Position numbers: made by a program. Positions 1-3,000 of a stretch of DNA of 5,362 bases are shown here, in pieces. The DNA comes from a virus (Duplodnaviria; Heunggongvirae; Uroviricota; Caudoviricetes), in IMG/VR virus record IMGVR_UViG_2537562194_000008; one strand, given 5' to 3'. Numbering within the stretch: position 1 is the stretch's first letter; every line of letters begins with the position of its first letter.

Positions 1-3000
1 TGCTGATTGATAAATGACAAACCTTTTACTACCTGCATTGAAAGAAGTAGACAAAACCAGACAATTATCATAACGAGCAAGAACATAATACCAACCATCA
101 TTATAATTAATCATTTCATATTCTTTCTTAAACTGTGGTTTGTAATATCCTGTCAGAAATGAAAAAAGCCAAAAATATGCCACAAAAGCAATCATCACAA
201 TCTCAAAAAAATGTTTTTTTATAAATGGCTTATCATAGAAGCATGATACCGATAAAAATCGCCCATAAGATCTTATCGAAATTGTAACCGCCAGCGCAAT
301 CGCTGCTGACAGTAGCAAAAGAGGTACCTGAATCTTCTGTCTCAATATAGAAAACTCAATAATTGCCGGCACAAACAATAATTCCACAGCAAAATAAAGG
401 CGAAATACATTTAGCTCTTGCATAGAATGTTTTCTTTTCACTGCGAAAAAGAATACAACACCAATACCCCAACCGATAAGAAATATAGCAATGACGATAA
501 CTGCAAAAAATAAACTTCTGGCAACATCATCAACACCTGCACCTACAATCCACCATGGGAAGCCGTAGTAAAAAGAAGTACCCCATCCATAGAAATAAGC
601 ACTCCCCCATCCAAGGCATCCCATGTAGGCAATAAAAAGTGAAGAACTCCTGAGCAGCGCACCATCCTTCATAACCACCCCAATACAAGATGATAACATT
701 GGCTTACAACTCATAACAAAAGCAATTCAATGCCGTCAAGAGGTTACAGGCTAAAAAAACTCTATTACATAGCAGCCAGCATGTTTACCGTACAAGTACA
801 ACTCAGGGCATAAAAAAAACCCACTCGGCAGCGGGTTTATACATTTTTTACAACATACCAAATTTGCATGAAGTATATGGCTTTTAATCCAGTTTTGCAA
901 TATTTTGCTGTAAAAATGCTGCCTTTTGTTTTGAACGTGTTCTCGTCACAAGCAATAAAGCATCACTATCAAGCTGTAGAAAAATGTGCTTCATTGCAAC
1001 CCAGCGTTCAGTAAATGTCTCGGACCAGTTTTTTGTTGTCACTCCCACCAATGATGCCAGTGTCTGGTATTCATAGGCCTCACGCCCTGCAAGTTCGCTC
1101 TTCACATCCTGTGCAGCCAGCCAGATTAACGTCTTCAGGCGATCCAGTGTCTTACCTGCAATTTTTCTGTTACTTAACAAATCTTTAAACTCGCTCCATG
1201 CCCATTGCGTTATGGTGACCTGATGCCCCCATCGAACGCTTTCGCTGTAACACCAAAGCAACCATGCTTTCTGATGTTCATCGAGAGACAAAACCGCGCG
1301 GCGCCATGAAGAGGTTGAGAATTCAACCGGGCTGACCAAAGCAATGGATGAACCTTTTGCGTACGACTGCTTACCGGAAGTCGGCGTATTATCCAGCGTA
1401 ATCATCTTGCCAGTTACCACATCCAGAATGCGCGGCTTCTTTCGTTTGTATGTACCAGTATCAAATTGTGCATGCTCCTGCCAGGCTTCGAGCTGGCCTT
1501 TCGTTGCTCCGTTCAAGTCAGCAGTAGCTGCCATAAGTTGCTCACGAACATACTGTAAATATTGGGTATTCATGCAGTAAATCCTTTCTATATTTTGGCA
1601 TAATTCTTCAACATTCGGTAATCGTTCAAAACCGAATCGGGGAAACGACATAAGCACACGAGCCCCCAGCGACAGCGAAGGAGTTCTGATATATAAGACT
1701 CAGACATCATTCATTCCCCGGTTCTCCAATATCTGTTTCACTCATCATCCATAACTACCTGTAATTGCCCCCCCCTTTTTTTGTAACAGTTCTTATATTG
1801 CTATATAGAATAGCCATTACTAATGCTTTTAAATTTAATAAAATAAAAATTATAAAAAACATAAAACACCACGCAAACACACTTAATAAAAACACCGTTA
1901 CATTAAAAGATAATAAAAACCGCAATAAAAAACGAATAAATCAATTGTCTCACGCAATTATAAAACATCATATTGATTACGCACCTTGTATTACAAACTC
2001 ATGTATGTAAAATACGCGCACCATTCAAAAAAAAGGAAGACAATAACATATGAAAAAAAGTGTCATCGCTGGCGTCTTTATTGCTCTGTCATTTACCACG
2101 TGTTCAGCTATCGCGAACAGCCTTGCATTATCATTAGCAAATGATGATGCAGGGAAGTTTCAACCAATACTTAATGATATTTATGGCAATAAACATGAAA
2201 ACAGAGATGATTACTCACAAGGCTTATTTCTGGGATATAGCCACGATATCTCAGACTCGAGCCAATTATCTCTCCATATTGCGCAAGATATTTACTCTCC
2301 ATCAGGCAGTAATAAAAGACACAACACAGCTGTAACTGGAGACAGAGCTTTTAGTGCATACACTCACACTGGTATTGAATGGAACTCCCTTGCGAATGAC
2401 TGGATTCGCTATCGATTAGGTACTGACATAGGTGTTGTTGGCCCCGACGCAGGCGGTCAGAAAGTACAAAATAAAGCTCATGAGATTATTGGGGCAGAAA
2501 AATATCATGCATGGGATGATCAAATAGAGAATCGCTACGGTTATACTGTAAAAGGGATGCTATCCATGACACCAAGTATGGATATTTTAGGTGCTAATGT
2601 TGGATTATACCCTGAAGTTTCTGCTGTTACTGGAAACTTATTTCAATATGTAGCATATGGCGCAACCATTGCCATTGGTAATGATAAAACCTTCAATTCG
2701 GATAATGGCTTTGGTCTGCTGGCTCCCCGTGGTTTAATGCATATGTCCGATACAAGCGGATTCAAATACAAGATTTTTGCAGGTATGGAAAGACGAGATG
2801 TCAATCGCAACTATACTCTCGAAGGAAAAACAATACAGACGAAACAAACAACAGTATCGCTAAACAAAACTGTTGATGAATATCAAGTTGGCGCAACAAT
2901 TGGGTATGCACCTGTAGCCTTCACACTAGCATTTAATAAAGTAACATCAGAATTCAAGACAGGGGATGACTATTCATTTATAAATGGAGCAATCACCTTC

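What the first reader, a model, noticed from the sequence alone, without database searches (positions are those of the whole stretch)
884..1657. 257-aa putative Q antiterminator with uncertain family and start codon
The protein is longer than the lambda, 21 or 933W Q types I can recall and does not obviously match them. The antiterminator call rests on synteny and the downstream PR'/tR'-like module. It may be a long-form (QuuQ-type) Q or a divergent antiterminator. Three alternative starts (GTG 1657, ATG 1651, ATG 1573) give 257, 255 or 229 aa.
Basis: inference. Interest (0 to 1): 0.45.

Follow-up and report, generated by a model that had tools for sequence, protein, structure and literature searches.

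The report
Phage 82-type Q antiterminator, 229 aa
The ORF is an ordinary, already catalogued late-gene antiterminator Q of the phage 82 family, identical to the Q of the classic phage 434. Its real start is the downstream ATG, so the protein is 229 aa, not 257.

Summary
The gene is shorter: ATG 1573 to stop 884, 229 aa.

- **Family:** Pfam PF06323 (the Q82 family) matches at E=1e-91. There is no match to the Q-lambda or Q21 families.
- **Close relatives:** 203 of 229 residues match the prototype phage 82 Q without gaps. The match to the Q of wild-type phage 434 is 100%. RefSeq already calls it this way (WP_001097238.1).
- **The 28-codon extension is not coding for Q:** it overlaps ylcG (1588..1710) in another frame. 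Phage 82 has no in-frame start there, six other relatives have stops 18-24 codons upstream, and 116 of 120 closest homologues are 229 aa.
- **"QuuQ-type" is wrong:** K-12 QuuQ/YdfT belongs to PF03589 and shows no similarity.
- **Downstream module is present:**
  - promoter TTGCAA-17-TATACT;
  - an extended -10-like pause element at +6..+14;
  - conserved TGTA at +23..+26;
  - a terminator hairpin plus T8 at +28..+54.

Window 1-3235 is 99.5% identical to phage 434. The finding is already known and of low interest.

The parts
884..1573 (-). Q antiterminator gene, Q82 family, 229 aa (ATG 1571-1573, stop 884-886)
   Evidence: PF06323 at E=1.1e-91 covers residues 4-219 of the 229-aa form. PHROG 304 at E=3e-108 starts at M29 of the long form. 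203/229 identical to phage 82 Q without gaps. 100% identical to phage 434 Q. RefSeq CDS WP_001097238.1 has the same coordinates.
1574..1657 (-). In-frame open stretch upstream of the true start (GTG 1657, ATG 1651). It is not part of the conserved Q protein.
   Evidence: Phage 82 has no in-frame start here. PhiR47_2, 689R5, PPompW, Gifsy-1, RCIP0114 and RothD have stops 18-24 codons upstream. The stretch overlaps ylcG.
1582..1585 (-). Shine-Dalgarno AGGA, 8 nt before ATG 1573
   Evidence: Read directly from the sequence. AGGA at the same distance is conserved in phages 82, PhiR47_2, Gifsy-1 and RothD.
1588..1710 (-). ylcG, small phage gene of 40 aa, upstream of Q. It overlaps the supposed N-terminal extension in another frame.
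   Evidence: NCBIfam NF033498 YlcG_phage_expr at 44.4 bits, cut-off 30. The protein motif RW..L..R....SVL.DYR.L.N is conserved across Escherichia, Salmonella and Klebsiella phages. RefSeq WP_032178163.1.
872..900 (-). Late promoter PR': -35 TTGCAA (900..895), 17-nt spacer, -10 TATACT (877..872). The predicted +1 is A at 865. The spacer is where the Q-binding element is expected.
   Evidence: Consensus scan. The same hexamers are aligned in PhiR47_2 (Q 97% identical to Q82), 689R5 and PPompW, and the -35 also in the Klebsiella phages. The QBE lies between -35 and -10 according to PMC4914094.
841..860 (-). Sigma70-dependent pause region: extended -10-like element TGgTATGTT (+6..+14, 860..852), then GTA at +15..+17 and the conserved TGTA at +23..+26 (expected pause near +25, position 841)
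   Evidence: Ungapped alignment with 82-type leaders, which have TGaTATTTT, GCC and TGTA. The layout matches the published description of 82 PR': an extended -10-like element, GCC at +15-17 and a pause at +25/26 (PMC5001585).
812..838 (-). Intrinsic terminator of the PR' leader: hairpin AAACCCGCU-GCCG-AGUGGGUUU followed by a U8 run (+28..+54)
   Evidence: Terminator scan. RNA fold gives -15.8 kcal/mol, z=-2.9. Phage 434 annotates a terminator at the same place.

Best explanation
**What it is.** Window 884..1573 (-) encodes a 229-aa late-gene antiterminator Q of the phage 82 family. It is identical to the Q of wild-type phage 434 and 88.6% identical to the biochemically studied 82Q.

**How it most likely works.** The mechanism below is inferred by homology with 82Q.
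1. RNA polymerase starts at the promoter just after the gene (-35 at 900..895, -10 at 877..872).
2. Sigma70 re-binds the extended -10-like element at +6..+14 and the polymerase pauses near +25.
3. Q binds its site in the promoter spacer, contacts the beta flap tip and, helped by NusA, becomes a stable subunit of the elongation complex.
4. Q shields or extends the RNA exit channel, so the polymerase reads through the hairpin-U8 terminator at +28..+54 and later terminators into the late genes. These are a membrane protein, a DUF3927 protein, an esterase, a holin and a lysozyme.

**The long form.** The 257- and 255-aa readings are an accident of an open frame across the 3' part of ylcG.

**Shown versus inferred.** Family, start site, promoter, pause and terminator anatomy, and identity to known phages are shown here. 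Pausing, DNA binding and antitermination by this particular allele are inferred.
For: **Family**
- PF06323 at 306 bits, and no other Q family matched.
- PHROG 304.
- PF06323 is the Q82 family in Yin et al. 2022.

**Identity**
- 203/229 identical to Q82 with no gaps.
- 100% identical to phage 434 Q.
- Window 1-3235 is 99.5% identical to phage 434, including the promoter and terminator. Phage 434 is a phage propagated in the laboratory (PMC9119081).

**Start site**
- 116/120 homologues are 229 aa and begin MNxQ.
- No upstream starts in phage 82, and stops in six other relatives.
- Conserved AGGA 8 nt upstream of the ATG.
- ylcG occupies the extension.

**Downstream module**
- Promoter and terminator scans, alignment of leaders and the hairpin fold.
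- The layout matches the published 82 PR' description.

**Mechanism of 82Q**
- PMC4914094.

**Fold**
- AlphaFold2 model with mean pLDDT 76.7 and a confident core at about residues 81-220.
- This agrees with the AlphaFold comparison already published in PMC9371919.
Against: - No experiment on this allele exists in what I could search.
- The pause-associated discriminator is GTA, not the GCC of 82 PR'. Changing GCC to AAA cut the pause half-life about 5-fold in 82, so pausing here may be weaker.
- The Q-binding element cannot be delimited from sequence, because the promoter spacer overlaps the end of the Q coding region.
- In the exact source-like genome (E. coli 95NR1) the prophage is rearranged and interrupted by IS1203. 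Q may therefore not be expressed by the normal early-to-late cascade there.
- The Foldseek matches to AlpA are not significant on their own (E about 0.7).
Confidence: 0.93

Rival explanations
1. The long form is real. Translation starts at GTG 1657 or ATG 1651 and gives a 257- or 255-aa Q with an extra N-terminal segment, overlapping ylcG as a dual-coding stretch. It would be either the main product or a minor isoform specific to the 434/O111 lineage.
For: - The frame is open and carries two in-frame starts in the window and in phage 434.
- A G-run (GGGGG) lies 5 nt before the GTG and 11 nt before the ATG.
- Between the window and phage 82, both frames are equally conserved over the overlap: 16/22 residues each, with no codon-position bias.
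Against: - Phage 82 keeps the open frame but has no start codon in it. Six other relatives have stops 18-24 codons upstream.
- 116 of the 120 closest homologues are called at 229 aa.
- Family profiles begin at M29.
- A conserved AGGA serves ATG 1573.
- The stretch encodes the conserved YlcG motif in the other frame.
- The RefSeq and phage 434 curators chose MNT... as the start.
Confidence: 0.04
2. The gene is intact but functionally silent in this host. It sits in a rearranged, IS-interrupted cryptic prophage, so it is a fossil rather than a working switch.
For: - In the 100%-identical genome E. coli 95NR1, the integrase lies next to the lysozyme gene.
- IS1203 abuts ninE and is followed directly by a portal gene.
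- No early region is seen between them within the 17-kb stretch examined.
Against: - The ORF, promoter, pause element and terminator are all intact and essentially identical to those of phage 434, a phage propagated in the laboratory.
- Q can act in trans on other prophages with the same PR'.
- This reading concerns expression in this host, not what the gene is.
Confidence: 0.3
3. It is a QuuQ-type (long Q-lambda family) antiterminator or some other divergent regulator.
For: Only its size, which is longer than many Q proteins, and its position after the nin genes.
Against: - K-12 QuuQ/YdfT matches PF03589 plus a DnaJ-type zinc-finger region. It gives only a 44-residue spurious local alignment with this protein.
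- This protein matches only PF06323.
- It has a single cysteine, so it has no zinc finger (read from the sequence).
Confidence: 0.01

Closest known systems
Q of wild-type phage 434 (OL657226.1, UMO75331.1, annotated 'Q82-like')
   Same: - 100% identical over 229 aa.
- Identical PR' and terminator region.
- The whole block of membrane protein, terminator, PR', Q, ylcG, lpxR and lambda-Q remnant is 99.5% identical over window 1-3235.
   Different: The nin region upstream differs. The window has ybcO, rusA and ninH where phage 434 has ninG and ninI. The window comes from an E. coli O111-type chromosome, not a free phage.
Q of phage 82 (X92588.1, CAA63332.1), prototype of Pfam PF06323
   Same: - Same length (229 aa) and same start (MNTQYLQYVREQL).
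- 203/229 identical without gaps.
- Preceded by ylcG/orf45.
- 82-type late promoter layout, inferred through PhiR47_2, whose Q is 97% identical to Q82.
   Different: - 26 substitutions.
- ylcG ends 14 nt before Q, instead of overlapping it as ATGA, and is 40 aa rather than 46 aa.
- The discriminator after the pause element is GTA rather than GCC.
- The terminator hairpin begins at +28 rather than further downstream.
Q-lambda family (PF03589), including K-12 QuuQ/YdfT
   Same: - Same job and same genomic position.
   Different: - No detectable sequence similarity.
- No zinc finger, since there is only one Cys.
- A 29-codon remnant of a lambda-type Q gene survives separately at 3135..3224.
Q21 (6jnx) and Pseudomonas AlpA (7xya, 7xyb)
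   Different: - No sequence similarity. No hit in a sequence search of the PDB.
- The Foldseek E-values are not significant.
- Whether Q82-type proteins form a closed nozzle is an open question (PMC9388147).

Membership tests
Q82 family of lambdoid Q antiterminators (Pfam PF06323) | Significant full-length match to the family profile above the curated threshold | tested here: met
   306 bits against a cut-off of 25, covering profile positions 1-216 of 220. PHROG 304 at E=3e-108.
Q82 family of lambdoid Q antiterminators (Pfam PF06323) | Colinear similarity to the prototype phage 82 Q, with the same length and start | tested here: met
   203/229 identical with no gaps. Both are 229 aa and start MNTQ.
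Q82 family of lambdoid Q antiterminators (Pfam PF06323) | Gene lies at the end of the nin region and directly upstream of the late promoter, a terminator and the late and lysis genes | tested here: met
   Gene order on the minus strand is ninE, ninX, ninF, ybcO, rusA, ninH, (lpxR), ylcG, Q, PR', terminator, membrane protein, esterase, holin, lysozyme.
Q82 family of lambdoid Q antiterminators (Pfam PF06323) | Late promoter with an extended -10-like sigma70 pause element ending at +14 and a pause site near +25 | tested here: met
   TGgTATGTT at +6..+14 and TGTA at +23..+26 align with 82-type leaders and fit the published description. The GCC at +15-17 is replaced by GTA. Pausing itself was not measured.
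Q82 family of lambdoid Q antiterminators (Pfam PF06323) | Intrinsic terminator downstream of the pause site | tested here: met
   Hairpin plus U8 at 838..812. Phage 434 annotates a terminator at the same place.
Q82 family of lambdoid Q antiterminators (Pfam PF06323) | QBE-dependent loading onto the paused polymerase and read-through of terminators | not testable with these tools
   This needs in vitro transcription or a reporter assay. It has been shown for 82Q only (PMC4914094).
Q-lambda family (PF03589), including QuuQ/YdfT | Match to PF03589 and a cysteine-rich zinc-binding region | tested here: not met
   The window protein has no PF03589 match and only one Cys. YdfT matches PF03589 at E=3.6e-54 and is unrelated in sequence.
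Q21 family (PF06530) | Match to PF06530 | tested here: not met

The most novel reading that the evidence does not exclude
The 434/O111 lineage may have a variant Q82-type loading site. Its leader is unusually compact: the terminator hairpin starts only 3 nt after the expected +25 pause. The discriminator is GTA rather than GCC. The lineage also has in-frame upstream starts (GTG 1657, ATG 1651) that phage 82 lacks. Together these could mean altered pause kinetics or a minor N-terminally extended Q isoform that tunes the timing of late genes.
Probability: 0.05. Interest if true: 0.3.

Novelty: already known. Interest (0 to 1): 0.08.

Why it matters
It matters little beyond correct annotation. 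The gene should be called as a 229-aa Q82-family antiterminator starting at ATG 1573, with ylcG upstream, rather than as a 257-aa protein of uncertain family.

It is a useful reminder that an open frame running into a neighbouring small gene can inflate an ORF. It also shows that "does not look like lambda, 21 or 933W Q" points to the third known Q family, not to something new.

The Q82 family is still the only Q family without an experimental structure. That is a property of the family, not of this locus.

Tried and rejected
- **Codon-position test of the 1588-1657 overlap, window against phage 82.** There were too few substitutions. Counts by codon position were 2/4/3 in the ylcG frame and 3/2/4 in the Q frame, and both frames were 16/22 identical. 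The test was uninformative. The question was settled instead by more distant relatives.
- **Sequence search of the PDB.** Only spurious hits appeared at E>=0.04, so there is no solved relative.
- **NCBIfam.** It has no model for this Q.
- **Published 82 PR' sequence.** I tried to get it from the supplement of PMC4914094, but no supplement is held. I used PhiR47_2 (Q 97% identical to Q82) and the verbal description in PMC5001585 instead.
- **CII-box pattern TTGYN6TTGY** (annotated as paQ in phage 434). There were 4 matches against 1.6 expected, and 16 of 200 shuffles did as well, so this is not above chance.
- **Rfam and tRNA scans of the window.** Nothing was found.
- **QuuQ-type hypothesis.** Rejected.

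Full report
**1. Observation**

The six-frame ORF list shows a 257-codon ORF at 884..1657 on the minus strand, starting with GTG. Walking upstream from ATG 1573 in the same frame gives 42 open codons. In-frame starts lie 28 codons (GTG 1657) and 26 codons (ATG 1651) upstream. The sequence feature is therefore real.

**2. Family**

- The protein matches only Pfam PF06323, "Phage antitermination protein Q", at E=1.7e-91 (306 bits, cut-off 25). Residues 32-247 of the long form cover profile positions 1-216 of 220.
- PHROG 304, "anti-termination protein Q-like", matches at E=3.3e-108, with residue 29 aligned to profile position 1.
- The 229-aa form scores the same, at 306.8 bits.
- Yin et al. 2022 (PMC9388147) list three Q families: Q21 (PF06530), Q-lambda (PF03589) and Q82 (PF06323). 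They report no obvious sequence similarity between them.
It belongs to the third family.

**3. Closest relatives**

- The 229-aa protein is 100% identical to the Q of wild-type phage 434 (OL657226.1). The depositors annotate that gene [quoted passage not shown].
- It is 203/229 (88.6%) identical, without gaps, to the prototype phage 82 Q. That gene is X92588.1, CDS 1633..2322, 229 aa.
- The window is 100% identical to the chromosomes of E. coli strains 95NR1 and 95JB1, and 99.7% identical to many O111 strains.
- RefSeq there calls Q at window 884..1573 (WP_001097238.1). It also calls a YlcG family protein at window 1588..1710.
- Window 1-3235 is 99.5% identical to phage 434.
- Phage 434 is a classic phage propagated in the laboratory (PMC9119081). 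I infer from this that the Q and PR' pair works.

**4. Start codon**

- Of the 120 best database homologues (72-100% identity), 116 are exactly 229 aa, and nearly all start MNxQ.
- In phage 82 the Q frame is also open for 42 codons upstream, but it contains no ATG, GTG or TTG.
- In PhiR47_2, 689R5, PPompW, Gifsy-1, RCIP0114 and RothD the frame is closed by a stop 18-24 codons upstream.
- In 689R5 and PPompW the upstream neighbour is rusA rather than ylcG.
- An AGGA lies 8 nt before the ATG in the window, phage 82, PhiR47_2, Gifsy-1 and RothD.
- The extension region is occupied, in another frame, by ylcG. The 40-aa product matches NCBIfam NF033498 at 44.4 bits (cut-off 30).
- The YlcG motif RW..L..R....SVL.DYR.L.N is kept from Escherichia to Klebsiella phages.
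- A codon-position test between the window and phage 82 was uninformative, because there were too few changes.
- Taken together, the gene starts at ATG 1573. A minor long isoform in the 434/O111 lineage cannot be excluded by sequence alone, and I give it about 4%.

**5. The "QuuQ-type" suggestion**

- K-12 QuuQ/YdfT (250 aa) matches PF03589, the Q-lambda family, at E=3.6e-54. It also has a DnaJ-type zinc-finger region.
- It gives only a 44-residue chance alignment with the window protein.
- The window protein has a single cysteine (sequence).
- The suggestion is rejected.

**6. Downstream module**

- Directly after the stop codon, on the minus strand, lies TTGCAA (900..895), a 17-nt spacer, and TATACT (877..872).
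- The 82-type leaders carry GCC at +15..+17. Registering them on that position, as described for 82 PR' (PMC5001585), places +1 at the A at 865.
- The window then has TGgTATGTT at +6..+14, which is an extended -10-like element. It has GTA at +15..+17 and TGTA at +23..+26.
- PhiR47_2 (Q 97% identical to Q82), 689R5 and PPompW have TGaTATTTT, GCC and TGTA at the same positions.
- The published features of 82 PR' are an extended -10-like pause element, GCC at +15-17, an AT-rich stretch and a pause at +25/26 with U at +25. All are present here except the GCC.
- Changing GCC to AAA shortened the 82 pause about 5-fold. The pause here may therefore be shorter, which is an inference.
- A hairpin, AAACCCGCU-GCCG-AGUGGGUUU, followed by a U8 run occupies +28..+54 (window 838..812). 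It folds at -15.8 kcal/mol with z=-2.9. Phage 434 annotates a terminator at the same place.
- The leader is more compact than in PhiR47_2 or 689R5, where the hairpins lie further downstream.

**7. Mechanism, by homology**

- For 82Q it has been shown that the protein needs the QBE and a sigma70-containing complex paused at +25.
- 82Q contacts the beta flap-tip helix and is stimulated by NusA when the nascent RNA is short.
- It then stays with the elongation complex and shields about 10 further nucleotides of RNA at the exit channel (PMC4914094).
- Whether Q82-type proteins form a closed nozzle like Q21 and Q-lambda is still open (PMC9388147).
- I assign the same mechanism to the window protein on the strength of 88.6% identity and the conserved cis elements. 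It was not tested.

**8. Fold**

- An AlphaFold2 model was built from a 53-sequence alignment whose members are 22-88% identical to the query. It has mean pLDDT 76.7.
- The helical core at about residues 81-220 is confident. The segments 22-43 and 63-76 have low confidence.
- Foldseek also puts AlpA first, but not significantly.
- A sequence search of the PDB finds no relative.
- This resemblance was already reported from AlphaFold models of 82Q (PMC9371919), so it is corroboration rather than a new result.

**9. Context**

- The Q module is part of a mosaic. A 29-codon remnant starting MRLESVAKFHSPKSPMMSDS sits right after ninH at 3135..3224. To my recollection this is the N-terminus of lambda Q. 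Phage 434 annotates the equivalent piece as an N-terminal fragment of lambda Q, and RefSeq calls it a partial antitermination protein.
- Next comes an lpxR gene on the opposite strand at 2050..3009 (PF09982, E=6.8e-40). It has AT-rich flanks of 28-33% GC.
- After that come ylcG and the 82-type Q.
- It therefore appears that an lpxR, ylcG, Q82-type and PR' block replaced most of a lambda-type Q gene.
- In strain 95NR1 the prophage lies next to ybhC and is rearranged. The integrase sits next to the lysozyme gene, and IS1203 lies between ninE and a portal gene. Expression of Q in that host is therefore uncertain.

**10. Verdict**

- The ORF is real, but the gene is the 229-aa form.
- It is a known, annotated Q82-family antiterminator, identical to phage 434 Q.
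The "QuuQ-type or divergent" idea and the 257-aa length are not.
- Novelty: already known. Interest: low.

Noticed in passing
window 3135..3224 (-): A 29-codon remnant, MRLESVAKFHSPKSPMMSDSLLATVYWFS*, lies directly after ninH. It looks like the N-terminus of a lambda-type Q gene cut off at a mosaic junction, so the lpxR, ylcG and Q82-type block seems to have replaced a lambda-type Q. RefSeq annotates 3153..3224 as a partial antitermination protein, and phage 434 annotates the same fragment.
   Followed up: partly
window 2050..3009 (+): A lipid A deacylase LpxR gene (PF09982, E=6.8e-40) sits on the opposite strand between ninH and ylcG-Q, flanked by AT-rich DNA of 28-33% GC. Early rightward transcription must cross it in antisense to reach Q. 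Phage 434 has the same arrangement.
   Followed up: partly
window 3056..3092: A strong inverted repeat lies just after lpxR. On the + strand it forms a 15-bp stem at -19.1 kcal/mol (z=-7.2) with no U-tract. On the - strand the hairpin is followed by UUUAUGUUUUUG, so it looks like a terminator facing transcripts that come from the nin region towards Q.
   Followed up: partly
window 1588..1710 (-): ylcG here is 40 aa and stops at a TAG 14 nt before the Q ATG. In phage 82, PhiR47_2, Gifsy-1 and RothD it is 46 aa and overlaps Q as ATGA. Translational coupling of ylcG and Q may therefore differ in the 434/O111 lineage.
   Followed up: no
window 812..865 (-): The late leader is very compact. The terminator hairpin starts at +28, only 3 nt after the expected +25 pause, so the terminated RNA would be about 53 nt. 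The +15..+17 discriminator is GTA rather than the GCC of 82-type leaders.
   Followed up: partly
window 895..908 (+): TTGCAATATTTTGC fits the CII-box pattern TTGYN6TTGY on the strand antisense to Q and overlaps the palindromic PR' -35 (TTGCAA). Phage 434 annotates it as a paQ-like site. The pattern count in the window is not above chance: 4 found, 1.6 expected, and 16 of 200 shuffles did as well.
   Followed up: partly
window 1..699 (-), running off the window start: The first gene after the terminator encodes a hydrophobic protein with no Pfam or NCBIfam match. It is annotated as a hypothetical or putative membrane protein in RefSeq and in phage 434. In the matching genome it is followed by a DUF3927 protein and a SASA-family esterase before the holin.
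   Followed up: no
window 5074..5362 (+); L001 11074..12287: An IS3-family element (IS1203) begins next to ninE. In strain 95NR1 it is followed directly by a portal gene, and the integrase lies next to the lysozyme gene beside ybhC. The prophage is therefore rearranged and probably defective. Other O111 strains carry about 1.3 kb more sequence here, including ninB.
   Followed up: no
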